Shown: positions 5,892 to 20,198 of the stretch, one piece after another
How the letters are laid out: the number at the start of each line of letters is the position of its first letter
How positions within the stretch are numbered: position 1 is the stretch's first letter
Origin: Patescibacteria group bacterium
GTDB lineage: Bacteria; Patescibacteriota; Minisyncoccia; Phycocordibacterales; Phycocordibacteraceae
Reading direction: 5' to 3'
Length of the DNA stretch: 64,000 bases
Assembly (NCBI GenBank): GCA_038064595.1
Contig: JBBTSV010000001.1
Span: 1,915 to 65,914 of the forward strand
The notes under the pieces: model-generated
The model's database searches: none
What the model was told of the DNA's origin: nothing
Seen by the model: only the letters and a program-made list of their open reading frames with translations
Translations under genes and position numbers: made by a program

Positions 5892-6005
5892 CTTCCGCAG
5901 AATGAGTAGTTATTCTGACTGATATAAAATACTACGATATATCATAGTGTTTTTATGCAGTATCCACACAACACAACTCGGTGGCTGCACATTGCTTGTA
6001 CGTGT

Positions 6006-6764
6006 CTAGGTGAGGGCACGGATGTCTTCGGTGAGGGCGTCGACGCGGCTGAAGAAGTGCGGACTCCGGATGTCGCGCGGGCGCGGGAGATCGACCGCAA
6101 TGATCTTCTCGACGCGGCCCGGGTGCGCGTTCATCAGTATGATGGTATCTGAGAGCTCGATGGCGTCGGGGATGAGGTGGTTGACCATAAGCACAGTCAT
6201 GCCATAGGAGCGCCAGATTTTCAACAAATCGGTCTTCAGTGCCTCGGCAGTGATTGTATCGAGGTTTGAGAACGGTTCATCCATGATGAGGAGGTCAGGC
6301 GAGATTGCGAGCGCGCGTGCGAGCCCGACTCTCTGGCGCTGGCCGCCCGAGAGGGCGGCGGGGTAGTGTCGCTCGAGGTGGACAAGCCCGACTTCATCGA
6401 GCTTCTCGCGCGCGACGCGTTCACGCTCTTTGCGTCCCACACCCTCCATCCGGAGACCAAAGGCGACATTCTCAAGCGTTGTGAGCCACGGGAAGAGGGC
6501 ATAATTTTGAAATACCATTGCCGGGCGCTGTACGTTGCGGATAATCTCACCGCTTCGTATCGGCATAAGCCCAAGAATGACACGCAGGAGGGTTGACTTA
6601 CCCGAGCCTGACGGACCAACAAGTGATACAAACGATCCGTGGGGGATAGAGAAGCTGACCTCATGCAGAACCGAGGGGTCCTGCTTCTCTTCGTCGACAA
6701 AACGCGTTGATACACGTGAGAGCACCAGTGCCATGGGAGGGTGGTCGGTCATGTTACTCCGCAT
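6006..6764 (-). CDS. ABC transporter ATP-binding protein (NitT/TauT-like)
   Basis: Walker A GPSGSGKST, LSGGQRQRV, Walker B LIMDEPFSNLD. Confidence 0.85.
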   Translation of the reverse strand: MRSNMTDHPPMALVLSRVSTRFVDEEKQDPSVLHEVSFSIPHGSFVSLVGPSGSGKSTLLRVILGLMPIRSGEIIRNVQRPAMVFQNYALFPWLTTLENVAFGLRMEGVGRKERERVAREKLDEVGLVHLERHYPAALSGGQRQRVGLARALAISPDLLIMDEPFSNLDTITAEALKTDLLKIWRSYGMTVLMVNHLIPDAIELSDTIILMNAHPGRVEKIIAVDLPRPRDIRSPHFFSRVDALTEDIRALT

Positions 6765-7503
6765 AGCGGCGGCTACTCTCTGAGAGGAGGGGCGCCCACA
6801 CGAGTCGGTTCACGATGAAGACGATGACGAGGATACCGAGCGCGCCCGCAACGGCGCTTGGGCTAAGGCCAGAAGCGTCGGCGCCTTTAATAAACGCGCC
6901 AAAGCCTTCACTACTGATAATAATTTCAGCGCCAATCACCGCTTCCCAGCCTATCGCGATACCCACAATTGAACCTGAAAGCACAGCGGGAAATGAGAGA
7001 GGGGCAAGGTAGTGGGTAATGCGGCGAAACCCTGTCGCACCAAAGATGATAGCTGCATCATTCAGATCTTTATGGACACTGCGGATGGTCGTGAGCACGG
7101 CAAAGAGTATGGGCCACACGATAGAGGTGACGGCAAACAAGACGATCATTTTGTCGGTGAAGCCGAAAAAGTAGACAAAGAGGGGGAAGAGAGCAAACGA
7201 GGGAAGGTTCTGGAGGACGTCAAAAAAGGGGAAGAGGAAATCCATAAGGGGACTCCAACCGACGAGAAGGCCGATCCCCACCCCCAGAGCCAGCGCGATA
7301 CCGTACGCAACAATCAGCCGGTATGTTGTCTGAAGAACTGCGTCAGTGAGTATGGGCCAGTCAACATCGGTAAAGTATCCCGTTTCGACAAACAAGACGG
7401 CACCGATAATCACCAGAGTCATCAGGAGCCACGCCAAGCGATTGCGTATCGAGTGCGCGTAGTGGAGCGAACGCGTTTTGGGATGCGAGATGCTCCCGAT
7501 CAT
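6754..7503 (-). CDS. ABC transporter permease (BPD_transp_1-like EAA loop)
   Basis: Six TM segments, DAAIIFGATGF EAA-like motif, overlaps the ATPase start. Confidence 0.8.
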   Translation of the reverse strand: MIGSISHPKTRSLHYAHSIRNRLAWLLMTLVIIGAVLFVETGYFTDVDWPILTDAVLQTTYRLIVAYGIALALGVGIGLLVGWSPLMDFLFPFFDVLQNLPSFALFPLFVYFFGFTDKMIVLFAVTSIVWPILFAVLTTIRSVHKDLNDAAIIFGATGFRRITHYLAPLSFPAVLSGSIVGIAIGWEAVIGAEIIISSEGFGAFIKGADASGLSPSAVAGALGILVIVFIVNRLVWAPLLSESSRRYAE

Positions 7504-7532
7504 GAGTTCATTCTAGCGCATCACGGGGTATC

Positions 7533-8462
7533 TCAGGGGAGGGTGTGTGGAGGAGTGGCGTCGCGTTCATCAAACTTGAAACCGCGTGCGACAAGCTCGC
7601 TCCAGAGATAGTTGTACCACAGTCGATATCCTTCACTGCTCGGATGCATTTTGTCTTTGGCATAGTAGCGATCAGGGTTTTCAAAAAATGGATTGGAGGT
7701 GTATTTGTGGATCTTCTCCGTAATAAAAAGCTCGACGAGCGGTAATCCGACCGCATCAGTCGCTCGCGCGAACACGTCGTGCACAATATCAGTACGCCGT
7801 CCGATAACCGAACGGATGAACGCTGGGAAGAAGGGTGCTTGTCCAAGATTTGCGTAAAAAAGTACAACGACGCGTCGATTGCTTTTTGCAATGGCTTGAT
7901 CAAGGAGGCGGCGGAGGTCTCGTTCAAGCGATGTTACACTGGTACGAAACAAAATATCGTTTCCTCCTGTACTTATAACAATCAAATCAAATGTCTGAGA
8001 GTCAGTACGCTCGAGTTGGGTGATGGCATCGCGTACGAGTGATCCATTTACCGCAACGTTGAGAATGGACGTATGAGGGAAATCGCGTCCAAGACGTCCT
8101 GCGATAGTATCTTCTGGCGCATCAGCACCAGTGCCGTACGCAGTACTATCACCAAGGACAAGAATTCGTTTCGGGCCATCACGCTGCGCTGAGTACACGA
8201 CAGGTTTCTTCCACATAAATTGAACCTCATGAAGCAGTGTCCAAATCATGTGGAGTACCTTGAGTGTCACGAGGAGTGCCGTACCTTCTCCAAGTAGGAT
8301 GAGGAATGCTGGGAGGAAGATCTCCACACCGACGGGTCCACCCAAGGAGATTCCATCGACGAGTGACTGTATATTCTCTCTTGTATGAGTGATCGCACCA
8401 CTACCGATACTAACAAAAACATCTCCAACTCGAGAGCCTATCGTGCGAAGAAAATCGGTCAT
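7533..8462 (-). CDS. SGNH/GDSL hydrolase with N-terminal membrane domain
   Basis: LVLGDSTAYG (GDS), GGNDI, and DKMHPSSEGY catalytic blocks. Confidence 0.7.
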   Translation of the reverse strand: MTDFLRTIGSRVGDVFVSIGSGAITHTRENIQSLVDGISLGGPVGVEIFLPAFLILLGEGTALLVTLKVLHMIWTLLHEVQFMWKKPVVYSAQRDGPKRILVLGDSTAYGTGADAPEDTIAGRLGRDFPHTSILNVAVNGSLVRDAITQLERTDSQTFDLIVISTGGNDILFRTSVTSLERDLRRLLDQAIAKSNRRVVVLFYANLGQAPFFPAFIRSVIGRRTDIVHDVFARATDAVGLPLVELFITEKIHKYTSNPFFENPDRYYAKDKMHPSSEGYRLWYNYLWSELVARGFKFDERDATPPHTLP

Positions 8463-9193
8463 GTTAGGAGCGCTCGTATGAGCGTCTCGTGTATCTGACG
8501 ATACCACACTTCATACCCTGCGTCATTTGGATGCATTAAATCACGAGCGAGGAGCTTCTGATCTATAACCGGGTCGTTTTTTTCATGGAAGAGTGATACA
8601 TGCGATACGCCAACCTCGTGCGCAACTTCCTGGTACAATATCTTCATTTGTCTTGAGCGATTGTGATAGAGCGGTAACAGAAAAGGAGGATAGCACAACA
8701 TGAGTCCCGCGTTGTTTGGACTAATAAGCACAATGTTTTTTCCGTACTGTTGACTCCGCGTAAGTATGGTCTTGAGGGAGCGCCGCAGAAGTGCAAGAGG
8801 GGTAAAACAAACAAGGTTCATACCACCAAGCATGATGACAATGAGATCAAATGGAGGGGTGTTTTTCTGAACGCGAGTATCAAGTGCAGTATGCGCGTAG
8901 GAGAGATAGACTCCCGGTTTACTCGCATTTTCAATATGGGCAGTTGGAATCGCAGCAGCAAGTCTCCCAGGGATGGAGTAGCGACCTTCGCTGGCACCTG
9001 TACCGTATCCGGTACTATCACCGATAAAGAGTACGCGCATCGGCGCTTGATCGTTGTGGCGTTCATAAGTGGTAAGCGCCGCACTCAATTCTCGCGAGAT
9101 TCGTAATTGACGGTATACGCGCATAGCTCCACACACGCCGTAGAATATCAGCATTCCGACAACGATACCCACCCCCTGACCGACACCTGTCAT
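8459..9193 (-). CDS. SGNH/GDSL hydrolase (paralog of the gene downstream)
   Basis: LFIGDSTGYG, GGMN, and DLMHPNDAGY blocks. Confidence 0.7.
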   Translation of the reverse strand: MTGVGQGVGIVVGMLIFYGVCGAMRVYRQLRISRELSAALTTYERHNDQAPMRVLFIGDSTGYGTGASEGRYSIPGRLAAAIPTAHIENASKPGVYLSYAHTALDTRVQKNTPPFDLIVIMLGGMNLVCFTPLALLRRSLKTILTRSQQYGKNIVLISPNNAGLMLCYPPFLLPLYHNRSRQMKILYQEVAHEVGVSHVSLFHEKNDPVIDQKLLARDLMHPNDAGYEVWYRQIHETLIRALLT

Positions 9194-9196
9194 GTT

Positions 9197-10759
9197 TTAC
9201 TGATTAGGAATCACTTTATAGTCTTTAGTTTCGTCTACCAGGACCACATCTCCCTCACGCAATCCTGACACTATCTCAACATAGCCATCGACACCGACTG
9301 ATCCGGTTTCGACATGGGTGCGCACAGGCATGTCATTTTGGAGCAGGTTGACCGTGGCGCTTTTACCAGCACCAGCGACGGCAGCGAGGGGGATAGCGAG
9401 TACGGACGGCTTATCAGCAACTTGAATGTGTGCGGATGCGGTGAGACCCGGACGGATATGCGCGTCGAACGGATCGAAGTAGACCGTCACTTTAAAATTA
9501 GGGACACTGTCTTGAGGGGTTGCCGTTGGATCAATGGAGCGCAGAGTGCCCGTAAATGACTCACCCGGGAATGCGTCAAGCATAATGGACACCCTCTGGC
9601 CGACCACTATTTTATTCGAGTGAACCTCTGGAACATACCCCTCAAGCTTTAAGGGTCCCGTAGCGATAAGGGAGAGCACGGTAGCTCCGGCGCCGACTGC
9701 TTCACCAACGTTTGGCTCTATCGAGGCGACGGTACCTGAAAGGGGAGCAACAAGAGTTTGGTCACTCAGCGTATCCTTTAGTTCGGCAACCAATTCACGC
9801 GCATGCGCAACGGCCGCTTCCTGTGCCTGACGCGCTTCGTGTGTTGGACCAGACAGGAGAAGATCGAGCTCGCGCTCTGCGACGGTGACCGCTGCTTGAG
9901 TGCTCCGCACGGCGCTATATGCCTCATCAAGGGTGCGATCAATCCCGGTAAGAGCCGTACGAGCGGTCGTCACCGCACTCTGTGCGGCGGCACTTTGGGT
10001 TGGATCGCCGCTTGCGAGAAAGGTCGTCAAATTATCGAGGATACCTGCGATGACCTGTATGTAGTCGTGCATGTCATCGGTGGCATCGAGTAACGCGTCG
10101 ACGGATCCAGTCTGGAGTGCCGTGATGCGTGATCGCCATGAGATAAGTTGTGGCTGGAGATTACGGCGGGCACTGAGTGTCTGGATACTTGTTTGTTGAT
10201 CGACGATAAGGATGGTGAACGAGGAATGTGTAAAGGACGGGTTCTGAATAAATTGATCAATAGTGACGCGGATGACCGTGTCGGTCATGCTTTGGGCACT
10301 CGCGATCACCTTCAGCAATGCCTTTTGTGCATTGGTAAAGGCAGTCTGGGCATCGGTTACCTGAGCACTGGCTACGGCTATCTGTTCAGGGCGGGTTCCA
10401 CGAAGAAGTTCACGTAATCGTGCGCTCTCCGCATCAAACTGTGCCTGTGCCTGTGCAAGCTGGTCTTTTACCGTCGAGCTCCGTAAGACTATCAGCGGGG
10501 TGGTGGTCGTCACCGAGTCCCCAACGTTCACGAGGACAGCTTCCACAATGCCGTTGTTTTTGAAAGCAAGATCAATCGTTTCGGCAGCTTTTGTTGTTCC
10601 GAACATATCGACTTGCTCGACTATGTGCCGGTAGCTCACGGGTACGGGTGTGAGCACCACTGATTGGGCACCCTGCATTTTTGCATAGCCGTACCATAGA
10701 CCAACGCCGCCGAGGACGACACCCACCACGACGGACACCACGGTCAGGATACGAGTCAT
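9197..10759 (-). CDS. HlyD/MacA-like periplasmic adaptor subunit of an efflux system
   Basis: N-terminal TM, long coiled-coil/alpha-hairpin, beta-barrel C-terminal region; located upstream of a MacB-like ATPase and permease. Confidence 0.75.
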   Translation of the reverse strand: MTRILTVVSVVVGVVLGGVGLWYGYAKMQGAQSVVLTPVPVSYRHIVEQVDMFGTTKAAETIDLAFKNNGIVEAVLVNVGDSVTTTTPLIVLRSSTVKDQLAQAQAQFDAESARLRELLRGTRPEQIAVASAQVTDAQTAFTNAQKALLKVIASAQSMTDTVIRVTIDQFIQNPSFTHSSFTILIVDQQTSIQTLSARRNLQPQLISWRSRITALQTGSVDALLDATDDMHDYIQVIAGILDNLTTFLASGDPTQSAAAQSAVTTARTALTGIDRTLDEAYSAVRSTQAAVTVAERELDLLLSGPTHEARQAQEAAVAHARELVAELKDTLSDQTLVAPLSGTVASIEPNVGEAVGAGATVLSLIATGPLKLEGYVPEVHSNKIVVGQRVSIMLDAFPGESFTGTLRSIDPTATPQDSVPNFKVTVYFDPFDAHIRPGLTASAHIQVADKPSVLAIPLAAVAGAGKSATVNLLQNDMPVRTHVETGSVGVDGYVEIVSGLREGDVVLVDETKDYKVIPNQ

Positions 10760-10788
10760 TATCCTCTATTGTAGAACATATTTTCCGT

Positions 10789-11496
10789 CTAGAGACCCAC
10801 CATTTGCTGAAGCGGGGATTGTGGAATATGGGTGACGTCAACGAGTTGGCCCTGTTTCAACTCGAGCACGCGTGTGGCCATACTAAGCGACTCTCGTTCA
10901 TGGGTCACCATAATAATCGTGGAACCCGCTTTGTGGATAGCTCTAAACATCGAAAGAATTTCAAGGGCGCTGGTAGTGTCCAGGTTGGCCGTCGGCTCAT
11001 CGGCCAATATATACGAGGGATTATGGGCGATTGCACGAGCAATCGAGACGCGTTGTTGTTGTCCACCTGAAAGTTTCGATGGTCGGTATTTGGCATGATC
11101 GCCCAGACCGACGCGGTCGAGTGCAGCACGGGCGAGTTCTTTTGCCTCAGCACGACTCTTTCCTCGCATAATGAGAGGGAGCACGACATTATCGAGAGCA
11201 CTCATCTCAGCCATCAGCCCATAATCTTGAAAGACGTACCCCAAACGGTCTAAGCGCAGATCAGATCGTGCGTTCCTTGAGAGTGTGCTTCCTACGAATC
11301 CATCAATACTGACCACCCCCTCGTTTGGGGTGTCGAGGAGACCCAAGAGGTAGAGCAGCGTTGACTTACCAGAACCGGAGCGGCCGGTGATAATAACAAA
11401 CTCACCCTCTGCGGCTACGAAATCAAGGTGCTCAAACACAATAAGCGAACTCTCGCCCGAAGCGAACTGTTTTTTTAAGTTGCGTGCCTCAAGCAT
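10789..11496 (-). CDS. MacB/LolD-like ABC ATPase
   Basis: GRSGSGKSTLL, LSGGQQQRVSIARA, ILADEPTANLD. Confidence 0.85.
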   Translation of the reverse strand: MLEARNLKKQFASGESSLIVFEHLDFVAAEGEFVIITGRSGSGKSTLLYLLGLLDTPNEGVVSIDGFVGSTLSRNARSDLRLDRLGYVFQDYGLMAEMSALDNVVLPLIMRGKSRAEAKELARAALDRVGLGDHAKYRPSKLSGGQQQRVSIARAIAHNPSYILADEPTANLDTTSALEILSMFRAIHKAGSTIIMVTHERESLSMATRVLELKQGQLVDVTHIPQSPLQQMVGL

Positions 11497-11501
11497 AGGA
11501 G

Positions 11502-12788
11502 TTAGCGGCCGAGAATGGCATCGACGATTTCTTGTCGCATAATCATTCGTGCCGGGACAATGCTTGCGCACATAATCGCTATGTAGAGCACCAACGCTTT
11601 TACCCACGCCTCGGTGATCGATACAGAAAGGATACCATTACTGAAAGGAAAATCGATCGGGTGAGCAACGAAATATGGTTCAATAAGCATAAAATTAAGC
11701 GCAATGCCAATGACTGCGCCCAGTGAGGAAAAGAGCGATGATTGAGCCACATAACCTATCTCGATGCCACCCGGACGGACCCCGATGGCTTGTAGGATGC
11801 CGATAGAACGGCGGTGGGTGACCGTGTTGATAAATACCAAAATAAAGACCGCAATGAATGATATGACCAAGCCCGTACTTCCAAGAATCGTGCCCAACTG
11901 ACCGAATGTTGATGCAAAGTCTTGGAAAAATGACGGTTCGGAGTCACGACCATAGAGTATCAAACCGTTATTCCCTATAGGCGAACGCTTGAGCTGGTCT
12001 CGAATGGTGGGGGCACTCGCTCCAGGAGCAACTCTGACCGCGATCTCGTTGACTCCCCGATTCGTTCGTCCAAGCATAGCGCGAAGTTGAGCATCCACCA
12101 TGTAGGCACTCAAGTTTATTTCCTCCAATTTACTTGCCACGATTCCTTTTACGGTCATTTCTCGCTCAATACCGTTCAGCATGATACGTACTTTGTCTCC
12201 CACCCCAACCTTGGGGATGGGTATGGTACCAGGGAGTGCCGTGAGCGTTTTGTACCGTGCCAACAGGCTCGTACCGATGAGAATCTGGTTGTAATCCGTG
12301 GGACGTAAATACTCACCCTCAACAATGAGGTGAGAGAGCCCGGTCGTGGCATCTTCTGCGGTTGGGTCGATACCAATGAACGTCGAAATAATTACATCGG
12401 GAGTATCTTGTTCAGTGATCTTCTCTGCATAATTTCCCTCGATGATCCCGGTTGTTTTGTAACGCGGAGAAAACGAGGTAATAAGTGGCAGCGTTTTTAA
12501 ATAAGAGATTGTGTCGGGAGAGTTCAGGATGGCGTTTTTTCGATCGTGCTGGACGATCATAATGTCCCCCGTATAGTGATCTCGTCGCTCTTGGCGTAGC
12601 CCATCAACAATACCGACCAGCAGCCCACTGACCATGAGGAGGTTGAGATACGTCAGAATCATCACGACCACAATAAGGATTGACGTACCCTTATTCGCCA
12701 GCATCTGACGGTTTGCAAGGAAAAATCCAACACGGATCGTGTTCCAGGTGCGCCTGAATGAGGAGGGAGGCATACTACGAGGATCCAT
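11502..12788 (-). CDS. MacB/FtsX-like ABC permease with a large periplasmic domain
   Basis: FtsX-family C-terminal TM bundle; -10 TATACT lies 7 nt upstream of the ATG at 12788. Confidence 0.75.
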   Translation of the reverse strand: MDPRSMPPSSFRRTWNTIRVGFFLANRQMLANKGTSILIVVVMILTYLNLLMVSGLLVGIVDGLRQERRDHYTGDIMIVQHDRKNAILNSPDTISYLKTLPLITSFSPRYKTTGIIEGNYAEKITEQDTPDVIISTFIGIDPTAEDATTGLSHLIVEGEYLRPTDYNQILIGTSLLARYKTLTALPGTIPIPKVGVGDKVRIMLNGIEREMTVKGIVASKLEEINLSAYMVDAQLRAMLGRTNRGVNEIAVRVAPGASAPTIRDQLKRSPIGNNGLILYGRDSEPSFFQDFASTFGQLGTILGSTGLVISFIAVFILVFINTVTHRRSIGILQAIGVRPGGIEIGYVAQSSLFSSLGAVIGIALNFMLIEPYFVAHPIDFPFSNGILSVSITEAWVKALVLYIAIMCASIVPARMIMRQEIVDAILGR

Positions 12789-12857
12789 GCACTTTAGTAT
12801 AGCGCAAGGTGCTCCCTTAATAGTGAGGCACAATTCTAACTGGTATACTACAGAGCG

Positions 12858-14081
12858 ATGACCTCTCCTTCCCGTTATCGACCCCGCATTCTCTTTGTAA
12901 GTGAAGCAGTCACGCTCGCCCATCTTGCACGCCCGCTTGCGCTTGCTTCAGCACTCGCTGAAGATGAATACGATGTCCATCTTGCCGTTGGGGATGCGTT
13001 TGAGACAGTCGTGAAGCAGAGTGCGATCACACGACACACGATTACCAACCTTTCGCGTACTGAACTCATCAAACGTGTGCGACGTGGTGCGCCCCTCTTT
13101 GACCGCGCGACTCTTGAACGAGAGGTGGTTGAAGATCAGGCGCTCATCAGAGCCCTCCAACCAGATCTCATCATCGGAGACTTCCGGCTTTCGCTTGGGG
13201 TAAGCGCCCGCATCTGTCGGGTCCCGTACGCCGGCATCTCCAATGCATACTGGAGCCCATCAGTAGCCTCCTGGTACGAGGTACCGCCGACTTTGTTTAC
13301 CCGTGTGTGTCCGCTCCCGCTCGCCCAATTCTTTTTTGATCATGCACAGACGCACATCTTTGCGCACCACACTCGACCCTACAACCAGGTACGTGCGCAC
13401 TATGGTCTTCCCCCGATCCCGCCAACGCTTACACACCTGTATACCGACGCTGACCACATGCTCTACGCTGATCCCCCTGACTTATTCCGAGGGCCACAGT
13501 ATTTAGCAAATGAACATTTTCTAGGGTTCATGCCGTGGTCGCTCGAAGCCCCGCACCCCTCAACGATAGAGTTTCCCAATACACACGAACCGCTCTGTTA
13601 CGTCGCACTCGGCAGCAGCGGTGCGCACCATCTAACCGAGAAAATTATTCAAGCATTCGGTGCTCTGCCGGTACGCGCGCTCATCGGGCGCGACGCCCAT
13701 CTCGTTGACGTCCCCCTCTCGCCTAACGTGCGTTTGACGCCGCTTTTGTCGGCAGCAACGATAGCAGAAAAAGCTGATCTCTTGATTATCAATGGCGGAA
13801 GTACGATGACGAGTCATGCGATAACTGCTGGGAAGCCAATAATCGGTATATCGGACAACATTGACGCATTGCTCAACATGCAGCGGATCGTAGCAAGTGG
13901 TATCGGCCTCTCCTTTCGTACCGATCGCTTTACGTCTCGAATGTTTGCAGATGGAGTGATGCGGATATTAACTGACCCCACCTTTCGCACAGCCGCACAG
14001 CTCCTTCAACGCTCTGCAGCGCAGCACGACTTTCGGAGAAATATCAGGTCATTCATTTCTTCAGTGACTGGTATACAATAA
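12858..14081 (+). CDS. GT-B glycosyltransferase, family 1 / MGT-like (UDP-sugar dependent)
   Basis: C-terminal signature INGGSTMTSHAITAGKPIIGISDNIDALLNMQRIVASGIG; -10 TATACT 8 nt upstream of the ATG. Confidence 0.8.
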   Translation: MTSPSRYRPRILFVSEAVTLAHLARPLALASALAEDEYDVHLAVGDAFETVVKQSAITRHTITNLSRTELIKRVRRGAPLFDRATLEREVVEDQALIRALQPDLIIGDFRLSLGVSARICRVPYAGISNAYWSPSVASWYEVPPTLFTRVCPLPLAQFFFDHAQTHIFAHHTRPYNQVRAHYGLPPIPPTLTHLYTDADHMLYADPPDLFRGPQYLANEHFLGFMPWSLEAPHPSTIEFPNTHEPLCYVALGSSGAHHLTEKIIQAFGALPVRALIGRDAHLVDVPLSPNVRLTPLLSAATIAEKADLLIINGGSTMTSHAITAGKPIIGISDNIDALLNMQRIVASGIGLSFRTDRFTSRMFADGVMRILTDPTFRTAAQLLQRSAAQHDFRRNIRSFISSVTGIQ

Positions 14082-14089
14082 AGGTACGC

Positions 14090-14758
14090 ATGAAAACCTC
14101 ACCTCTCGACCTTGTGTTCAACGGAGGTGCTTTCCTCCTCATTCTCGGGGGGGTGAGCGTGATTGTGCTCTGGTACGTTGCCCCCTTCACGACTGCGCTC
14201 ACGGGGGTATACCATCCCGTGTTTGATGTCGTGGTCGCGTCCGTCTTGTTTGGGGTAGGCGCAGGTATCCTGGTACGCACCACGCTTCTATTTCTCCCAC
14301 TTCAGCAAGGAACCTTTCGTATGGATCAACCGATTTTTACCTACTGGAAATTTCTCACCCTCACCTATTACACCGGGAAAGCTGCGCTCTCTCCAGTAAC
14401 GGTACTTCCACTTCGCCCGTGGGTGTTACGACTGTTTGGGGCACGTATTGGTAGCGACGTTGCGATTGATGGTGTGGTCGACACCCCGTTCCTCACCACC
14501 ATTGGCGATCGCACGCTTGTGGGAAACGGGTCACATCTTGCGGGGAACGTGACCCAGAACGGAGCACTGATTATCGGGCGTGTACAGATTGGATCAGACG
14601 TTACTATTTGTATGAATGCGGTCGTATTGCCGAATACGATCATCGGTGACCGTGCGGTCGTTGACATTGGCGCGGTGGTCATGCCCGGCTCGGTGATACC
14701 GGCAGGAGAGACCTGGCGGGGGAATCCGGCACGCAAGTGGCTCGGCGCGAGCGTCTAA
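14090..14758 (+). CDS. hexapeptide-repeat (LbH) acetyl/acyltransferase with N-terminal TM segments
   Basis: Imperfect tandem hexapeptide repeats (IGSDVAIDG.., IGDRTLVGNG.., IGSDVTIC..). Confidence 0.75.
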   Translation: MKTSPLDLVFNGGAFLLILGGVSVIVLWYVAPFTTALTGVYHPVFDVVVASVLFGVGAGILVRTTLLFLPLQQGTFRMDQPIFTYWKFLTLTYYTGKAALSPVTVLPLRPWVLRLFGARIGSDVAIDGVVDTPFLTTIGDRTLVGNGSHLAGNVTQNGALIIGRVQIGSDVTICMNAVVLPNTIIGDRAVVDIGAVVMPGSVIPAGETWRGNPARKWLGASV

Positions 14759-14762
14759 CACT

Positions 14763-15014
14763 ATGGATACGCGAGACAGAGTTCGCACCGTGTTTGACGA
14801 TACGCTCCAGCTCGGTGGACGCACCGCCGCGTGGGAGGAGACGACCCCGCTCCTCGGGAGCTTGGCCGAACTTGATTCGCTGACTATCTTTACGGTCATC
14901 GCTGCGCTCGAGAAAGAATTCGCTATCGCGTTTGATGATGGCGATATCAATGCCGAGGTGCTCGCGACACTCGGTTCACTCACCGCGTTTATCGACGAGA
15001 AACAGGCGACATAA
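14763..15014 (+). CDS. acyl carrier protein (phosphopantetheine site LDSL)
   Basis: 83 aa, acidic, LAELDSLTIFTVI helix-II serine. Confidence 0.65.
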   Translation: MDTRDRVRTVFDDTLQLGGRTAAWEETTPLLGSLAELDSLTIFTVIAALEKEFAIAFDDGDINAEVLATLGSLTAFIDEKQAT

Positions 15015-15020
15015 TCTGCC

Positions 15021-16601
15021 ATGATCATCCTCGTTCACGATCTCATAGCATCTGCAGCAGAGCGGTGGGGGGAACGGGTTGCGTTGCGGTACCAGAATCA
15101 AGAACTCACCTACCGGGCGCTCGCAGACGCGGTCGCCGCGAGCGCGTCCGGCTACAGGGCTCTCGGGCTTGCGCGCGGCGATCGTGTTGCGGTGTATACC
15201 GAGAAACGTCTCGAGACCGTCATCGCGCTCTTTGGCGCCACACATGCTGGTGGGGTCATGGTGCCTGTTAATCCGGTACTCAAGGCCAATCAGGTCGCAC
15301 ATATTGTACGCGACAGCACCGCACGCATACTTGTGACTACGAGTGAGCGGGTCGCGAGCCTCTCCGCCGTGCTTGATACCTGCCCAAGCCTCACTCACGT
15401 GATCTGTATCGGTGAAGCGCCCATTGACCACTCGGCGCGATTCTCGTGGGTTGGGTGGTCGTCTCTTCTGGAACAGGTGCCGTGTGAAGGTCACCGCACT
15501 ATTGATAGCGATATCGCCGCGCTCCTCTATACCTCCGGGAGTACGGGGAGACCCAAGGGCGTGATCATACCGCATCGTGTGCTCTGTGCGGGCGCGGCAA
15601 GTGTCGCAACGTATCTCGAGCTGACCGCCAAGGAGCGTGTGCTCGCCGTTCTCCCACTCTCTTTTGATTATGGTCTCAATCAACTGACGGCGACGTGGTA
15701 TGCAGGCGGCTGCGTGGTACTCATGAACCATCTTCTCGTAAAGGACATTATTTCTATGGTGGAGAAGGAGAAGATTACCGGTCTTGCGGCGGTGCCCGCA
15801 CTCTGGATCCAGCTCGCGCAGCTCTCATGGCCGCCCGCGTGTCGTGCCCACCTACGCTATATCACGAACTCTGGTGGGCATATGCCCAATGAAACGCTTG
15901 CGCGTTTACGTGCCGCGCTCCCGACCACCACTCCATACCTGATGTACGGCCTCACCGAGAGCTTCCGCTCGACCTACCTGCCACCGGCCGATCTTGATAC
16001 GCGCCCCGACTCTATCGGAAAAGCGATCCCGAATGCAGAGGTTTTGGTGGTACGCCCAGACGGCACTCCCTGCGCGCCGCATGAGCCGGGAGAGCTCGTG
16101 CATCGCGGCACACTGGTCGCACTTGGATACTGGAACGACCCGGAGAAGACCAAGGAGCGTTTTCGTCCGCTTCCGGGGCAGCGCCCCGAATTGCCTCTCG
16201 CCGAGCTTTGTGTGTGGTCCGGCGATACGGTTACTATGGATGAGGACGGGTACCTCTATTATGTTGGGCGCACTGATGAAATGATTAAGACGTCGGGGTA
16301 TCGAGTGAGCCCGACAGAGATCGAGGAGGTACTCTATGCCACGAAGCTCGTTGGGGAGGTCGCTGTTTTCGGCGTCCCGCATCCGGAGCTCGGGCAGGCA
16401 ATCGCGGTAGTCGCGACCCCCGCCTTGGGCACTGATCTCTCGCCCGAGACGCTGCTCACTGTCTGTCGACAGCGCTTCCCGCGCTATATGGTCCCAGCTC
16501 ATCTCGAGGTTGTGCACGGACCGCTTCCGGTGAACGCCAATGGGAAGTTCGACCGCCGTCTGCTTGCCGAAGAACGGAAACACGTATGCATCACATCTTA
16601 A
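15021..16601 (+). CDS. AMP-dependent synthetase/ligase (acyl-CoA or acyl-ACP ligase)
   Basis: LYTSGSTGRPKGV AMP-binding motif, 526 aa. Confidence 0.85.
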   Translation: MIILVHDLIASAAERWGERVALRYQNQELTYRALADAVAASASGYRALGLARGDRVAVYTEKRLETVIALFGATHAGGVMVPVNPVLKANQVAHIVRDSTARILVTTSERVASLSAVLDTCPSLTHVICIGEAPIDHSARFSWVGWSSLLEQVPCEGHRTIDSDIAALLYTSGSTGRPKGVIIPHRVLCAGAASVATYLELTAKERVLAVLPLSFDYGLNQLTATWYAGGCVVLMNHLLVKDIISMVEKEKITGLAAVPALWIQLAQLSWPPACRAHLRYITNSGGHMPNETLARLRAALPTTTPYLMYGLTESFRSTYLPPADLDTRPDSIGKAIPNAEVLVVRPDGTPCAPHEPGELVHRGTLVALGYWNDPEKTKERFRPLPGQRPELPLAELCVWSGDTVTMDEDGYLYYVGRTDEMIKTSGYRVSPTEIEEVLYATKLVGEVAVFGVPHPELGQAIAVVATPALGTDLSPETLLTVCRQRFPRYMVPAHLEVVHGPLPVNANGKFDRRLLAEERKHVCITS

Positions 16602-17800
16602 ACTCTTTTTCTACCACCAACCACGAGCTCGTCATCGGCGGTGTGCCGCTCACAACGCTCGTGGCGCGTGTTGGCTCCACCCCTTTGTATGTCTATGATC
16701 GAGAGCGGATCACTGACCGGGTTGCACTTCTGCGGAAACACCTCTCGCCGATGCTCAACGTCTCCTATGCCATGAAGGCAAACCCCATGCCCGCCGTGCT
16801 CGCGCACCTTGCGTCACAGGTTGATGGCTTTGACGTCTCCTCGCTTACCGAGATGACGCGGGCGCTCGATACAGGCATGCCAGCTACCGCGATAAGCTTT
16901 TCTGGACCGGGGAAAACTGAAAAAGAAATCACCTGTGCCGTGGCGGCGGGCGTACTCCTCCATGTGGAGTCGCTCCGCGAGCTGCGAGCAGTTATCGCTG
17001 CGGGGATAGCACTCGGACAGACACCACGCATTGCACTCCGGATCAATCCGGATTTTGCGGTGAAGGGGGTAAAGATAAAAATGGGCGGGATGACCCAGTT
17101 TGGTGTTGATCCGGAGACCGTCCCCGAGATGCTCACGATGCTCACGGCAGCCGGTCTTACCTGTGAAGGATTCCACATCTTCTGTGGCTCGCAGAACCTG
17201 CATGCCGACCTCGCAGTTACTGTGGTGAAGGACTCTCTTGCGCTCCTGTATCGTCTCTCTGCGCAGCTCCCCGCGCCGCCGCGTTCGCTCGTCCTCGGTG
17301 GCGGGTTCGGCATCCCGTATTTCCCGGGTGACGAGCCACTTGATATAGCTGCCGTGGGGAAGGGGCTCCAGCCTCTCCTGACTGAAGCGAAAGCGCATTT
17401 TCCCGAGGCAGTCATTGGTATGGAGCTTGGGCGCTATCTGGTGGGCGAAGCCGGGGTATATGTCGCGCGGGTGATAGACACAAAAACGGTACGGGAAAAA
17501 ACCTTTGTCGTCACCGATGGCGGACTCCATCACCACCTACCCGCCTCGGGGAACTTTGGGCAGTTTATCCGCCGCAACTACCCCGTCGCCATCGGTAACC
17601 GCATGAACACCCCAGCCACTGAGATCGTCTCAATCGTGGGGCCACTGTGCACCACCCTCGATCTTCTGGCCGACTCGGTGCAGCTGCCGCACGTGAGTAT
17701 TGGCGATCTGGTGGTCGTCTTTCAGTCGGGAGCGTACGGCCTCACTGCAAGCCCCCTCGACTTTCTCAGTCACCCACACCCCGTCGAAGTACTGGTCTAG
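16586..17800 (+). CDS. PLP-dependent decarboxylase (Orn/DAP/Arg decarboxylase fold type III)
   Basis: N-terminal TIM-barrel with AMKAN (PLP lysine) and a C-terminal beta-sandwich; overlaps the ligase stop. Confidence 0.8.
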   Translation: MHHILNSFSTTNHELVIGGVPLTTLVARVGSTPLYVYDRERITDRVALLRKHLSPMLNVSYAMKANPMPAVLAHLASQVDGFDVSSLTEMTRALDTGMPATAISFSGPGKTEKEITCAVAAGVLLHVESLRELRAVIAAGIALGQTPRIALRINPDFAVKGVKIKMGGMTQFGVDPETVPEMLTMLTAAGLTCEGFHIFCGSQNLHADLAVTVVKDSLALLYRLSAQLPAPPRSLVLGGGFGIPYFPGDEPLDIAAVGKGLQPLLTEAKAHFPEAVIGMELGRYLVGEAGVYVARVIDTKTVREKTFVVTDGGLHHHLPASGNFGQFIRRNYPVAIGNRMNTPATEIVSIVGPLCTTLDLLADSVQLPHVSIGDLVVVFQSGAYGLTASPLDFLSHPHPVEVLV

Positions 17801-17822
17801 AAGGCGGTATACTATACGTACT

Positions 17823-18683
17823 ATGTCCGTTGATGCTTGGTCATACCGTGAAGCGTTTGATCGCAACAGAAAGCTCATTAGTGACGATCATCAAGAAAAA
17901 CTCGAGCAGGCGCGCGTCGCGATCGCGGGGCTCGGCGGGGTCGGCGGGATCCACGCCACCACGCTTGCGCGGCTTGGGATAGGGCACTTCAGCATCGCTG
18001 ACCCCGATACGTTTGAGCTCTCCAATATCAATCGGCAACAAGGGGCGAACACCACCACCCTTAACATGCCCAAGAACATCACCCTCGAGCGGCTCATAAA
18101 AGAGATTAACCCCACAGCCGAGGTGCGCGTGAGCGGCGCCCTGACCGAAGAAAATATCGACGCCTTTCTCGAGGGAGCAACGCTTGCCGTCGACGGTATC
18201 GATTTCTTCACTATAAGTGCCCGCCGTCTCCTCTACCGCACATGCCGCGCGCGCGGGATCCCGGTCCTGGGCGCCGGACCAATCGGCTTTGGGTCCTCGA
18301 TGCTCAACTTCAGCCCCACTGGCATGAGCTTCGACGACTACATGAACATCACCGATGCCTTGCCGGAGCGTGAGCAGATACTCCACTTCGCGCTTGGTAT
18401 CGCACCGCGCATGCTCCAACGTTCCTACTTTGCGCCCACGACTATCGACTTCGCGGGTCATCACGCCCCCTCCTCCGTGCTGGGGACCCTCGCGTGTGCC
18501 AACTTCGTTGGTTGTGAGGCGTACAAGATTATCGTCGGACTCCCGTATGAGAGTGCACCGGTTTCCTGGCACTTCGACCCCTACGTGCGAAAGCTCCGAC
18601 GCTGCAACCTATGGGGAGGGAATCGTAACCCCATTCAGCGCTTCAAAAAATGGTATTTTATACATATCCTTAAATTGAAATGA
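17823..18683 (+). CDS. ThiF/MoeB/HesA-family E1-like adenylyltransferase
   Basis: VAIAGLGGVGG nucleotide-binding loop, NINRQ motif. Confidence 0.75.
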   Translation: MSVDAWSYREAFDRNRKLISDDHQEKLEQARVAIAGLGGVGGIHATTLARLGIGHFSIADPDTFELSNINRQQGANTTTLNMPKNITLERLIKEINPTAEVRVSGALTEENIDAFLEGATLAVDGIDFFTISARRLLYRTCRARGIPVLGAGPIGFGSSMLNFSPTGMSFDDYMNITDALPEREQILHFALGIAPRMLQRSYFAPTTIDFAGHHAPSSVLGTLACANFVGCEAYKIIVGLPYESAPVSWHFDPYVRKLRRCNLWGGNRNPIQRFKKWYFIHILKLK

Positions 18684-19926: not shown

Positions 19927-20198
19927 TGGATGTTCGCGATTTTGTGCTCACGGCTATTGCAGAAACGCTTGACCTTCCGCTGGCCGTGGTGCGTGACGAC
20001 AGTAAGCTCGTCGACTTGGCCGAAGACTCGATTAAGCTCTTTGAGCTCCTAATCCGGCTCGAGAACCTTTTTTCATATCGCGTAAGTTATGAGGCGATTG
20101 TGCATATTGAGACAGTGGGCGATGTCATCGCCTACATAGAGACGCTCCCGATCGACCGCGGCGTGCTCCAGGCTACTACCCAGAAGAAAGCCGCATGA
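19923..20198 (+). CDS. acyl carrier protein (second copy, DSI serine)
   Basis: 91 aa, LAEDSIKLFELL. Confidence 0.6.
   Translation: MMDVRDFVLTAIAETLDLPLAVVRDDSKLVDLAEDSIKLFELLIRLENLFSYRVSYEAIVHIETVGDVIAYIETLPIDRGVLQATTQKKAA

What the first reader, a model, noticed from the sequence alone, without database searches (positions are those of the whole stretch)
6006..12857. Divergently transcribed efflux/hydrolase operon facing the biosynthetic operon from a shared leaderless promoter region
On the minus strand, MacB-like permease, MacB-like ATPase, HlyD/MacA adaptor, two tandem SGNH hydrolases, and an ABC permease/ATPase pair are packed with overlaps or gaps of 30 nt or less. This operon runs from 12788 down to 6006. 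It starts at a -10 TATACT hexamer 7 nt before its ATG. The opposite-strand glycosyltransferase gene has its own TATACT 8 nt before its ATG. The 69-bp divergent region therefore probably co-regulates biosynthesis, tailoring/esterase and export functions as one roughly 14.8 kb system. The NitT/TauT-like ABC pair lacks any adjacent solute-binding protein.
Basis: partly seen in the sequence, partly recalled or inferred. Interest (0 to 1): 0.6.

Follow-up and report, generated by a model that had tools for sequence, protein, structure and literature searches.

The report
Lipid pump module beside oxazolone-type genes
In this tiny-genome (CPR/Patescibacteria) bacterium, a membrane pump and two lipid-type esterases are conserved partners of a small gene set resembling the recently discovered N-acyl-amino-acid/oxazolone lipid pathway, but the neighbouring "orphan" ABC transporter pair is an unrelated housekeeping unit and the seven genes are not one simple operon.

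Summary
All seven minus-strand genes, their gaps (5, 29, 3, -4, 29, 1 nt), the 69-bp divergent region and both TATACT boxes (7 and 8 nt before the ATGs) are present.

- A -10 box 6-8 nt before the start codon is window-wide (odds ratio 9, p 9e-15), not special to this locus.
- The same kind of box precedes the HlyD gene in all 10 related loci, the BPD permease in three genomes, and ThiF in all relatives. The array is therefore at least three leaderless units.
- In six related CPR loci, MacB permease-ATPase-HlyD-SGNH-SGNH lies divergent to ThiF-PlsC-PPTase-ACP-FeeM. There it is headed by a TyzC-like nitroreductase whose stop overlaps the pump's start.
- This block sits at three different chromosomal sites. 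It looks like an Oxz/Tyz-type N-acyl-amino-acid/oxazolone lipid pathway with its own pump.
- The NitT/TauT-like pair is a core Parcubacteria unit that stays beside pyrG and is not part of the block.
- The glycosyltransferase and the hexapeptide-carrier-ligase-decarboxylase cassette are additions specific to this lineage. The cassette looks horizontally acquired. They occupy the place of the missing nitroreductase.

I class this as a new variant of a known kind.

The parts
12789..12857 (.). 69-bp divergent region between macB-like ATG (12788, -) and glycosyltransferase ATG (12858, +). It holds two back-to-back -10 boxes 42 nt apart. Its ends form a 13-nt imperfect inverted repeat (12789-12801 / 12844-12856).
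12796..12801 (-). TATACT -10 box, 7 nt before ATG 12788 (predicted leaderless start of the pump unit)
12844..12849 (+). TATACT -10 box (TGG-TATACT), 8 nt before ATG 12858
11502..12788 (-). MacB/FtsX-type (type VII ABC) permease. It has 4 TM helices with a ~250-aa extracytoplasmic MacB_PCD domain between TM1 and TM2. An alternative start at 12773 is used by public gene calls.
10789..11496 (-). ABC ATPase of the LolD/MacB/DevA type (Walker A GRSGSGKS, LSGGQ). It starts 5 nt after the permease stop.
10768..10773 (-). Internal TACAAT -10 box, 8 nt before the HlyD ATG. An equivalent TATACT/TATAAT box is present in all 9 related loci examined.
9197..10759 (-). HlyD/RND_mfp membrane-fusion adaptor (YknX-like beta-barrel) with an N-terminal TM anchor
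8459..9193 (-). SGNH1: membrane-anchored GDSL/SGNH esterase or acyltransferase. GDS, GG-N/D and DxxHP motifs are conserved in 9 orthologues.
7533..8462 (-). SGNH2: paralogous membrane-anchored SGNH enzyme with a 4-nt overlap with SGNH1. It shows weak sequence similarity to GDSL lipase, lysophospholipase L1-like and TesA structures.
7510..7515 (-). TAGAAT -10 box, 6 nt before the BPD permease ATG. TAGACT and TAAACT sit at the same 6-nt spacing in two other genomes.
6754..7503 (-). NitT/TauT-like BPD_transp_1 permease (type I importer fold). It is a core Parcubacteria gene and not part of the conserved block.
6006..6752 (-). ABC ATPase partner of the BPD permease (TauB/SsuB/NrtD-like, below all equivalog cut-offs). 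It is 76% identical to the Kaiserbacteria L025 orthologue.
12858..14081 (+). EryCIII/MGT-like glycosyltransferase, a lineage-specific addition
14090..14758 (+). Hexapeptide-repeat acyltransferase with 2 N-terminal TM helices. Its best NCBIfam match is the Pls/PosA NRPS terminal domain. First gene of the acquired cassette.
14763..15014 (+). 83-aa carrier protein (PP-binding, LDSL motif); part of the cassette
15021..16601 (+). AMP-forming ligase. It matches TIGR03098 (exosortase A system-associated) above the curated cut-off (753 vs 592 bits).
16586..17800 (+). PLP-dependent decarboxylase. It matches TIGR03099 above the cut-off (545 vs 478 bits) and is 56-65% identical to betaproteobacterial proteins.
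17808..17813 (+). TATACT -10 box, 9 nt before the ThiF ATG 17823. An equivalent box precedes ThiF in all relatives, where ThiF is the first gene of the divergent unit.
17823..18683 (+). ThiF-family adenylyltransferase or cyclase. It matches PRK08223 above the cut-off and equals the ThiF part of the PRK14851, PRK14852 and Rv1355c fusion proteins.
18680..19324 (+). PlsC-type acyltransferase (HX4D motif HRSLFD)
19321..19926 (+). 4'-phosphopantetheinyl transferase
19923..20198 (+). Acyl carrier protein
20195..20809 (+). FeeM-family N-acyl amino acid synthase (E 7e-54 to the FeeM structure 2G0B)

Best explanation
The interval joins two unrelated things.

(A) Genes 7533-12788 (MacB-type permease, its ATPase, a HlyD-type adaptor and two membrane-tethered SGNH enzymes) are the export/processing half of a conserved, mobile block found in Kaiserbacteria-like CPR bacteria. 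The other half is the divergent ThiF-PlsC-PPTase-ACP-FeeM unit (17823-20809).

FeeM, ThiF and, in relatives, a TyzC/Rv1355c-like flavin oxidase are the three enzymes of the Oxz/Tyz pathway. That pathway N-acylates an amino acid, desaturates it, and cyclises it with ATP to an acyl-oxazolone.

Inferred mechanism:
- The PPTase primes the ACP.
- FeeM transfers an acyl chain from acyl-ACP to an amino acid.
- ThiF adenylates the carboxylate, for cyclisation or coupling.
- PlsC adds or exchanges an acyl group.
- The MacB-HlyD pump extrudes the lipid from the membrane.
- The two SGNH enzymes have intact catalytic triads, and their domains are predicted to sit on the cytoplasmic face. They either process the activated lipid or supply or release acyl chains.

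In this genome the flavin oxidase gene has been lost. Upstream of ThiF sit a glycosyltransferase and a probably horizontally acquired hexapeptide transferase-carrier protein-ligase-decarboxylase cassette. The product is therefore predicted to be a non-desaturated lipid with a modified head group.

(B) Genes 6006-7503 are a core Parcubacteria NitT/TauT-like importer-type pair with its own -10 box. It lies next to the block only because the block landed beside it.

Transcription is leaderless. It starts from at least three -10 boxes on the minus strand (12801, 10773, 7515) and at least two on the plus strand (12844, 17808). Read-through is possible because no terminators are seen.

Shown: gene content, conservation, mobility of the block, motif statistics. 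Inferred: product, pump substrate, SGNH role, promoter activity.
For: Co-occurrence:
- The closest MacB relatives (52-64% identity) are in CPR genomes.
- In L004/L013, L006, L008/L014, L016, L017 and L019 the order is FeeM<-ACP<-PPTase<-PlsC<-ThiF <> nitroreductase->MacB->ATPase->HlyD->SGNH->SGNH.
- In L004 and L006 the nitroreductase stop overlaps the MacB start by 4 nt.
- More distant MacB paralogues (41-45%) have the order HlyD-MacB-ATPase, sit in housekeeping contexts, and lack SGNH and FeeM.

Link to the Oxz/Tyz pathway:
- ThiF matches PRK08223 above its cut-off and matches the ThiF parts of PRK14851 and PRK14852.
- FeeM matches the N-terminal part of PRK14852.
- The relatives' nitroreductase matches the C-terminal parts of PRK14851, Rv1355c and PRK14852.
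- FeeM matches structure 2G0B at E 7e-54.
- Literature: PMC10404671, PMC12856293, bioRxiv 10.1101/2020.06.11.147165 and PMC12479983.

Block mobility:
- The block lies between BipA and SmpB in L006 and L008, and between LemA-GGDEF-M48 and DUF192-RNR in L004.
- In the window, BipA, tmRNA and SmpB are directly adjacent, and the block lies next to the BPD pair and pyrG.
- Block proteins are 40-73% identical between genomes, against 74-89% for flanking housekeeping proteins.

BPD pair as a separate unit.

Internal -10 boxes conserved.

Cassette:
- TIGR03098 and TIGR03099 are matched above their cut-offs.
- The decarboxylase is 56-65% identical to betaproteobacterial proteins.
- The same hexapeptide-carrier-ligase-decarboxylase cassette occurs in L027.
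- The canonical context is an exopolysaccharide locus.

SGNH motifs and charge distribution. MacB topology, Walker motifs and HX4D.
Against: - No transcript data exist. The -10 boxes are sequence motifs only, and the generic sigma-70 scan found nothing above chance.
- The flavin oxidase, a defining enzyme of the Oxz/Tyz pathway, is absent from this window. Oxazolone formation here is less certain than in the relatives.
- The amino-acid and acyl substrates are unknown.
- No acyl-ACP synthetase or fatty-acid synthase is seen in the conserved block, so the source of acyl-ACP is unexplained.
- One relative (L012) has the pump, nitroreductase and SGNH pair but no FeeM or ThiF within the 4.7 kb available upstream.
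- The SGNH orientation rests on the positive-inside rule only. The structure model was unusable (pLDDT 43.7).
- The sample of relatives is small: about 7 independent loci from MAGs and metagenomes.
Confidence: 0.6

Rival explanations
1. All seven minus-strand genes form one operon fired from the TATACT at 12801. It is co-regulated through the shared 69-bp region with the whole plus-strand operon, as one 14.8-kb biosynthesis/tailoring/export system that includes the NitT/TauT-like pair.
For: All genes are on the same strand with gaps of 30 nt or less. No terminator-like sites above chance, and none at the junctions. The two -10 boxes are back to back, 42 nt apart, so their upstream regions overlap. 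Read-through from 12788 cannot be excluded.
Against: Conserved -10 boxes precede the HlyD gene and the BPD permease. The BPD pair is absent from every related block and is syntenic with pyrG elsewhere. GT through decarboxylase are absent from all relatives, and ThiF keeps its own box. TATACT boxes at this spacing are window-wide.
Confidence: 0.12
2. The MacB-HlyD-SGNH module does not export the pathway's product. It is an envelope or lipid-scavenging device that feeds the pathway or protects the cell. The SGNH lipases or transacylases strip acyl chains from host-derived membrane lipids to load the dedicated ACP. The MacB machine extracts or remodels lipids, in the manner of LolCDE or FtsEX, rather than pumping out a metabolite.
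For: By general knowledge, CPR bacteria lack fatty-acid synthesis. The conserved block has ACP, PPTase and PlsC but no acyl-ACP synthetase. SGNH2 is nearest to lysophospholipase L1/TesA-type enzymes. The SGNH domains are predicted to face the cytoplasm. MacB-type proteins include non-pump mechanotransmitters (family knowledge). L012 keeps the pump, SGNH pair and nitroreductase without a visible FeeM.
Against: The nitroreductase gene, a biosynthetic enzyme, is translationally coupled to the MacB gene in relatives. This suggests the product and the pump act in sequence. A HlyD-type adaptor is typical of outward conduits. No SGNH-to-ACP transacylation is known.
Confidence: 0.2
3. The TANNNT boxes before internal genes are not promoters. 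They could be translation-initiation aids on a polycistronic, Shine-Dalgarno-less mRNA, or compositional by-products. On this view the minus-strand array is one transcript, even though the BPD pair is functionally unrelated.
For: SD-like motifs are not enriched before starts in this window (13/108 vs 185/1640), so some other initiation signal is needed for internal genes. Boxes occur between tightly packed genes elsewhere, for example at 47612 and 48766.
Against: The motif sequence (TATACT, TACACT, TATAAT) and its 6-8 nt distance match the spacing between a -10 box and a transcription start (family knowledge). The same box heads genes that begin divergent units (ThiF in relatives, smpB/ftsH in the window). 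Genes joined by 1-5 nt or by overlaps lack it.
Confidence: 0.15

Closest known systems
Acyl-oxazolone / N-acyl-dehydroamino-acid pathways: OxzAB (Pseudoalteromonas rubra), TyzABC and TrzAS (Mycobacterium tuberculosis), NasY-ThiF-nitroreductase clusters (Stieleria, Thalassotalea, Massilia)
   Same: An N-acyl amino acid synthase of the FeeM/AHL-synthase fold, plus a ThiF-type ATP-dependent cyclase, plus (in relatives) an FDO-type nitroreductase. ThiF and the nitroreductase match the two halves of the Rv1355c (TrzS)-type fusion model, and FeeM matches the N-terminus of the PRK14852 triple fusion. Divergent acyltransferase/ThiF-FDO layouts, accessory methyltransferases and nearby transporters (mmpL9 next to tyz) are also reported (PMC10404671, PMC12479983). 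Some oxzB genes cluster with glycosyltransferases and NRPS genes (bioRxiv 10.1101/2020.06.11.147165).
   Different: This version is in CPR/Patescibacteria. The papers read here report these pathways only from Pseudomonadota, Actinomycetota and Planctomycetota. It has a dedicated ACP, PPTase and PlsC acyltransferase, whereas TyzA, OxzA and TrzA were assayed with acyl-CoA. It has a MacB-HlyD pump and two SGNH enzymes as fixed partners. In this window the nitroreductase is missing, and a GT plus an NRPS-like cassette takes its place. No product is known.
MacAB-TolC / YknXYZ / DevBCA type VII ABC tripartite exporters
   Same: A four-TM FtsX-type permease with a large extracytoplasmic MacB_PCD domain, a separate LolD/MacB/DevA-like ATPase and a HlyD-type adaptor. 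DevBCA exports glycolipids and YknXYZ works without an outer-membrane channel (family knowledge).
   Different: The gene order is permease-ATPase-adaptor. This differs from devBCA, yknXYZ and the generic Parcubacteria paralogue, which place the adaptor first. No TolC-like gene was seen near the block. All equivalog scores fall below their cut-offs. The substrate is unknown.
Exosortase A system-associated ligase/decarboxylase/carrier set (TIGR03098, TIGR03099) of betaproteobacterial exopolysaccharide loci
   Same: The ligase and decarboxylase score above the curated cut-offs. The decarboxylase is 56-57% identical to named betaproteobacterial members such as Nitrosospira and Pseudothauera. A small carrier protein accompanies them.
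   Different: No exosortase, PEP-CTERM or polysaccharide genes are present here. The set is combined with a membrane hexapeptide transferase and a GT, and it is placed inside an Oxz-like block of a CPR genome.
NitT/TauT-family ABC importers (TauABC, SsuABC, NrtABCD)
   Same: A BPD_transp_1 permease, and an ATPase whose best hits are PhnT2, SaoA, TauB, NrtC/D and SsuB types.
   Different: No binding-protein gene is adjacent in any of three genomes. All scores are far below the equivalog cut-offs. The pair is a highly conserved stand-alone unit of Parcubacteria.
TesA / lysophospholipase L1-type SGNH esterases
   Same: GDS(T/A), Gly, GGN/D and DxxH blocks are conserved. There are weak sequence matches to GDSL lipase 8IK1, lysophospholipase L1-like 9OTV and TesA 4JGG.
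   Different: There are two tandem paralogues. Each has an N-terminal membrane anchor whose charge distribution predicts a cytoplasmic catalytic domain, whereas TesA is periplasmic. SGNH1 has no detectable PDB relative by sequence.

Membership tests
Oxz/Tyz-type acyl-oxazolone biosynthetic cluster | N-acyl amino acid synthase (FeeM/AHL-synthase fold) | tested here: met
   Pfam FeeM 122.6 bits. E 7e-54 to FeeM structure 2G0B.
Oxz/Tyz-type acyl-oxazolone biosynthetic cluster | ThiF-type ATP-dependent cyclase of the FDO-associated kind | tested here: met
   Pfam ThiF. NCBIfam PRK08223 at 323.6 bits, above the 266 cut-off. Matches positions 21-299 of PRK14851 and 313-580 of PRK14852, which are the ThiF-FDO and FeeM-ThiF-FDO fusions.
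Oxz/Tyz-type acyl-oxazolone biosynthetic cluster | FDO-type nitroreductase (TyzC / OxzB C-domain) that desaturates the N-acyl amino acid | tested here: not met
   tblastn with the relatives' protein finds nothing in the 64-kb window. The gene is present directly upstream of MacB in L004, L006, L008, L015, L016, L017 and L019. It matches the Rv1355c and PRK14851 C-terminal halves.
Oxz/Tyz-type acyl-oxazolone biosynthetic cluster | Product is an acyl-oxazolone or N-acyl dehydroamino acid | not testable with these tools
   Needs heterologous expression and LC-MS.
MacB-type (type VII ABC) tripartite efflux system | FtsX four-TM permease with a large extracytoplasmic domain between TM1 and TM2 | tested here: met
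   MacB_PCD and FtsX domains. TM segments at 30-48, 301-319, 351-369 and 399-417.
MacB-type (type VII ABC) tripartite efflux system | Cognate ABC ATPase with intact motifs | tested here: met
   LolD 217.7, MacB 200.5 and DevA 181.5 bits, all below equivalog cut-offs. Walker A and LSGGQ are present.
MacB-type (type VII ABC) tripartite efflux system | Membrane-fusion (HlyD) adaptor encoded alongside | tested here: met
   TIGR01730 RND_mfp at 134.8 bits, above the 94.9 cut-off. N-terminal TM anchor.
MacB-type (type VII ABC) tripartite efflux system | Outer-membrane channel (TolC-like) | not tested
   None was seen among the annotated genes near the block. The window was not fully scanned. By general knowledge CPR cells are not classical diderms, and YknXYZ-type systems lack this component.
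Single operon (one transcription unit 12788-6006) | Same strand with short intergenic gaps | tested here: met
   Gaps of 5, 29, 3, -4, 29 and 1 nt.
Single operon (one transcription unit 12788-6006) | No internal promoters | tested here: not met
   TACAAT lies 8 nt before the HlyD ATG and TAGAAT 6 nt before the BPD ATG. Both are conserved in relatives. This is sequence evidence only.
Single operon (one transcription unit 12788-6006) | Genes co-occur in related genomes | tested here: not met
   Five genes co-occur in all relatives. The BPD permease and its ATPase never occur in the block and are found elsewhere next to pyrG.
NitT/TauT ABC importer | BPD_transp_1 permease plus ABC ATPase | tested here: met
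NitT/TauT ABC importer | Cognate periplasmic or lipoprotein binding protein | tested here: not met
   None is adjacent in the window, L025 or L026. Elsewhere in the genome was not searched.
Exosortase A-associated ligase/decarboxylase set | TIGR03098 and TIGR03099 matched above trusted cut-offs | tested here: met
   753.2 vs 592.35 bits and 545 vs 478.45 bits.
Exosortase A-associated ligase/decarboxylase set | Located in an exosortase / PEP-CTERM / exopolysaccharide locus | tested here: not met
   No such genes flank it here. The canonical context is seen in Pseudothauera.

The most novel reading that the evidence does not exclude
A CPR bacterium that cannot make fatty acids carries a mobile 11-gene block that turns scavenged (host-derived) acyl chains into an N-acyl-amino-acid/oxazolone-type lipid and exports it. 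The two cytoplasm-facing, membrane-tethered SGNH enzymes would move acyl groups from membrane lipids onto a dedicated ACP. FeeM, ThiF and the flavin oxidase would build a reactive azlactone lipid. The MacB-HlyD pump would deliver it to the cell surface or to the host as a signal or effector. In this genome the head group would have been re-engineered by a proteobacterial aminoacyl-carrier cassette plus a glycosyltransferase.
Probability: 0.15. Interest if true: 0.8.

Novelty: new variant of a known kind. Interest (0 to 1): 0.5.

Why it matters
Acyl-oxazolones and related N-acyl dehydroamino acids were discovered only in 2021-2025. They have no established function and no known export route. 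In the papers I could search, they are reported from three phyla only.

CPR bacteria have minimal biosynthetic capacity and depend on other cells. A conserved, mobile block in which the pathway's oxidase gene is translationally coupled to a MacB-type pump has two implications:
- The lipid is meant to leave the cell.
- It may act at the symbiont-host interface.

The block also gives a concrete set of genes to express for product discovery: FeeM, ACP, PPTase, ThiF, with or without the oxidase, the PlsC acyltransferase, the SGNH pair and the pump.

For genome annotation, the finding is a caution. In genomes where leaderless -10 boxes are common, tight same-strand packing does not define an operon, and neighbouring ABC genes need not belong to the cluster.

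Tried and rejected
- **Generic promoter/terminator scan.** Counts were at chance level. It was uninformative for this organism's leaderless promoters. It was useful only for showing no strong terminators at the junctions.
- **Fold of the 3' end of the array, 5885-6012.** Not more stable than shuffles (z -0.64). No terminator is claimed.
- **Genome-contig scan with the permease alignment.** It returned only the two genomes already found. The metagenome scan added six close loci.
- **Nitroreductase search in the window.** Nothing found. A hidden or degraded copy in the 69-bp spacer is impossible by length.
- **AlphaFold2 on SGNH2 without an alignment.** pLDDT was 43.7, so no fold search was run. 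Alignments built from locus translations are not accepted by that tool.
- **Sequence search of PDB with SGNH1.** No hit.
- **Specific co-regulation from the mirrored 13-nt repeat in the spacer.** Rejected. It consists of the two -10 boxes plus A/G-rich start regions of a kind seen at several other TAYACT starts in the window.
- **Base composition as evidence for horizontal origin of the cassette.** Gene GC is 0.56-0.60 against a window mean of 0.558, so this is inconclusive. The horizontal-transfer inference rests on 56-65% identity to betaproteobacterial proteins and on the cassette's presence elsewhere.
- **Literature searches.** Searches for the pathway in Patescibacteria, for the exosortase-associated set and for leaderless expression in Patescibacteria found nothing relevant.
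- **Representative-library search with SGNH2.** It shows a modest family (67 clusters at E<=1e-30, 770 at E<=1e-10) but gives no context.

Full report
**1. Observation**

The seven minus-strand ORFs exist and carry the stated domains:
- a MacB_PCD+FtsX permease (11502-12788)
- a LolD/MacB/DevA-like ABC ATPase (10789-11496)
- a HlyD/RND_mfp adaptor (9197-10759, above the TIGR01730 cut-off)
- two Lipase_GDSL_2 proteins (8459-9193 and 7533-8462)
- a BPD_transp_1 permease (6754-7503)
- an ABC ATPase (6006-6752)

The identical locus occurs in three public assemblies. Using its gene calls, the gaps are 5, 29, 3, -4, 29 and 1 nt.

The minus-strand ATG at 12788 is preceded by TATACT (12801-12796) with 7 nt between. 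The plus-strand ATG at 12858 is preceded by TATACT (12844-12849) with 8 nt between. The spacer is 69 nt. Public calls start the permease at 12773, but orthologues are 430-432 aa long, which fits the 12788 start.

**2. The promoter motif is real but window-wide**

TATACT occurs 21 times in the window against 10.5 expected. A TANNNT hexamer ending 5-9 nt upstream is found at 29 of 108 first ATGs of ORFs of at least 100 aa. It is found at 64 of 1640 other ATGs (odds ratio 9.0, p 9e-15), with a peak at 6 nt. Shine-Dalgarno-like motifs are not enriched. Leaderless starts from a -10 box are therefore common across this window, and the divergent pair at 12789-12857 is one instance among many. The 13-nt mirrored repeat in the spacer is just the two boxes plus A/G-rich start regions of a kind seen at several other such starts.

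**3. Internal boxes**

- TACAAT (10773-10768) lies 8 nt before the HlyD ATG.
- TAGAAT (7515-7510) lies 6 nt before the BPD-permease ATG.
- TATACT (17808-17813) lies 9 nt before the true ThiF ATG at 17823.

These boxes are conserved. Every HlyD orthologue examined (nine further loci) has TATACT or TATAAT 6-13 nt upstream. Every ThiF orthologue has TATACT, TACAAT or TATAAT 6-10 nt upstream. The BPD permease has TAGACT or TAAACT at exactly 6 nt in two other genomes. Genes joined by 1-5 nt or by overlaps lack such boxes.

No terminator-like sites lie at the junctions, and the 3' end has no convincing hairpin. Read-through therefore remains possible. The best description is overlapping leaderless units, not one simple operon.

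**4. Organism and relatives**

The permease's relatives are from Candidatus Kaiserbacteria, Minisyncoccota and other Parcubacteria. The window's own proteins are deposited as "Patescibacteria group bacterium".

Only about 18 protein clusters share at least 52% identity with the permease. The many 41-45% relatives have the order HlyD-permease-ATPase in housekeeping surroundings, without SGNH or FeeM genes.

**5. Conserved block**

The close relatives include three NCBI MAGs and several metagenome contigs: L004/L013, L006, L008/L014, L016, L017 and L019. In all of them the layout is FeeM<-ACP<-PPTase<-PlsC<-ThiF, divergent from nitroreductase->MacB permease->ATPase->HlyD->SGNH->SGNH.
- Contigs cut at one end (L015, L018, L023) show the same pump-SGNH part.
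- In L004 and L006 the nitroreductase stop overlaps the permease start by 4 nt.
- One locus (L012) keeps the pump, nitroreductase and SGNH pair but shows no FeeM or ThiF in the 4.7 kb available.
- Variable genes sit between or beside the two units: methyltransferases, an FAD_binding_4 oxidase, a VTT/DedA protein and unknowns. This is typical of tailoring genes.

The block is also mobile. It lies between BipA and SmpB in L006 and L008, and between LemA-GGDEF-M48 and DUF192-RNR in L004. In the window, BipA (37446-39245), tmRNA and SmpB are directly adjacent, and the block lies next to the BPD pair and pyrG. Block proteins are 40-73% identical between genomes, while flanking housekeeping proteins are 74-89% identical. 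A gene set that keeps its order while changing chromosomal position is good evidence for a functional unit.

**6. What the block resembles**

- The window's ThiF matches PRK08223 above its cut-off and the ThiF segment of PRK14851 and PRK14852.
- FeeM matches the N-terminal segment of PRK14852.
- The relatives' nitroreductase matches the C-terminal halves of PRK14851, Rv1355c and PRK14852.
- FeeM matches the FeeM crystal structure at E 7e-54.

These three activities make up the pathway described for OxzAB, TyzABC and TrzAS. An acyltransferase N-acylates Tyr, Phe or Trp. A flavin-dependent oxidase of the nitroreductase superfamily desaturates the product. A ThiF homologue cyclises it with ATP to an acyl-oxazolone (PMC10404671, PMC12856293, bioRxiv 10.1101/2020.06.11.147165).

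Related clusters give N-acyl dehydrotyrosines in Planctomycetota and Pseudomonadota, often with methyltransferases (PMC12479983). None of these papers mentions Patescibacteria, a dedicated ACP or a MacB pump. The tyz cluster lies beside mmpL9, which its authors suggest as a possible exporter.

**7. What differs in this window**

The nitroreductase is absent. Upstream of ThiF are:
- an EryCIII/MGT-like glycosyltransferase
- a membrane hexapeptide transferase whose best NCBIfam match is the Pls/PosA terminal domain
- an 83-aa carrier protein
- a TIGR03098 ligase
- a TIGR03099 decarboxylase

None of these occurs in any relative's block.

The decarboxylase is 56-65% identical to other proteins, and the named ones among them are betaproteobacterial "exosortase A system-associated" proteins. 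The same hexapeptide-carrier-ligase-decarboxylase cassette is found in an unrelated context (L027). The canonical context is an exopolysaccharide locus. I infer horizontal acquisition of the cassette and a changed head group. TrzS variants show that ThiF-type cyclisation can proceed without desaturation, so a saturated oxazolone or an adenylate-mediated coupling is plausible here. This is inference.

**8. The pump and the SGNH pair**

The permease has four TM helices and a ~250-residue external domain. The ATPase has intact motifs. The adaptor has an N-terminal anchor.

Both SGNH paralogues keep the GDS, GG-N/D and DxxHP blocks in all 18 sequences aligned. Their N-terminal hydrophobic segment has no Lys or Arg before it in SGNH1, and one to five after it across both paralogues. 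By the positive-inside rule this places the catalytic domains on the cytoplasmic face.

SGNH2 weakly resembles GDSL lipase, lysophospholipase L1-like and TesA structures. SGNH1 has no PDB match. A single-sequence structure model was too poor to use. SGNH2 belongs to a modest family of mostly 240-250-aa anchored proteins.

I propose that the pump extrudes the pathway's lipid. I propose that the SGNH enzymes either process the activated lipid or handle acyl chains for the dedicated ACP. The second option would address the missing source of acyl-ACP in a lineage generally held to lack fatty-acid synthesis.

**9. The NitT/TauT-like pair**

The permease is a 249-aa protein conserved at 63-74% identity across Parcubacteria. 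In another Kaiserbacteria genome the pair lies beside pyrG-ftsX-ftsE-prfB, as in the window (prfB 1176-2051, ftsE 2059-2736, ftsX 2752-3681, pyrG 3691-5349). There it has unrelated genes in place of the block. In a third genome it stands alone.

No binding-protein gene is adjacent in any of the three. By fold and best hits it is an importer-type (type I) system, not an exporter. It is therefore a neighbour of the block, not a member.

**10. Verdict**

The efflux/hydrolase genes do belong with the opposite-strand pathway. However, the unit is 5+5 genes (plus an oxidase in relatives), not the 14.8-kb, 17-gene system proposed. The transcription architecture is multi-promoter and leaderless, and the orphan ABC pair is unrelated.

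As an Oxz/Tyz-like lipid block with a dedicated pump in CPR bacteria, it is a new variant of a known kind, of moderate interest.

Noticed in passing
whole window, e.g. 2740, 25023, 40516, 47612, 48766, 50253, 51755, 63716 (+); 21117, 40519, 44798 (-): Leaderless architecture across the window. TAYACT-type -10 boxes lie 6-8 nt before start codons, including genes in tightly packed arrays. Shine-Dalgarno-like motifs are not enriched. I found no paper describing this for Patescibacteria.
   Followed up: partly
window 40506-40528: smpB (ATG 40506, minus strand) and ftsH (ATG 40528, plus strand) are only 21 nt apart. They share a palindromic AGTATACT (40514-40521) that gives each gene a TATACT 6-7 nt before its ATG, so a single palindrome supplies both -10 boxes.
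   Followed up: no
window 6006-7503; L025 1895-3392; L026 6001-7477: A NitT/TauT-like permease+ATPase pair with no binding protein nearby is conserved at 63-76% identity across Parcubacteria classes, usually near pyrG. Its substrate and its binding partner, if any, are unknown.
   Followed up: partly
window 14090-17800; L027 5560-9319; L028 2-2723 and 3879-4809; L029 4480-4737 and 8398-11239: A hexapeptide transferase-carrier protein-ligase (TIGR03098)-decarboxylase (TIGR03099) cassette sits in a CPR genome. Its decarboxylase is 56-65% identical to betaproteobacterial exosortase-A locus proteins, which suggests horizontal transfer. The chemistry of this cassette is uncharacterised.
   Followed up: partly
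window 37446-40506 versus L006 2520-16415 and L008 3814-16570: In relatives the Oxz-like block lies between bipA and smpB. In the window, bipA, tmRNA (39294-39702) and smpB are adjacent, forming an empty site. The block's proteins are much more divergent (40-73%) than the flanking housekeeping proteins (74-89%), suggesting exchange or fast evolution of the block.
   Followed up: partly
window 42472-42545 (-): A tRNA-Ile gene with anticodon TAT, which is uncommon in bacteria.
   Followed up: no
L016 3939-8878; L017 equivalent; L019 7175-7852; L012 8756-11079; L006 4548-5663: Variable accessory genes are inserted in or beside the related blocks. They include a VTT/DedA-domain protein, two proteins with no family match (215 and 529 aa), FAD_binding_4 oxidases and SAM methyltransferases. 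This suggests lineage-specific tailoring of the lipid.
   Followed up: partly
window 31183-31285 (+), 55283-55662 (-): A SAM riboswitch (S-box) lies upstream of the ORF at 31250-32266, and a class A RNase P RNA is present. Both score above their Rfam gathering scores.
   Followed up: no
window 14074-14079 and 19914-19919 (+): Further -10-like boxes occur inside the plus-strand array. TACAAT lies 10 nt before the hexapeptide-transferase ATG 14090, and TACACT lies 6 nt before ATG 19926 of the ACP. They are not consistently conserved in relatives.
   Followed up: partly
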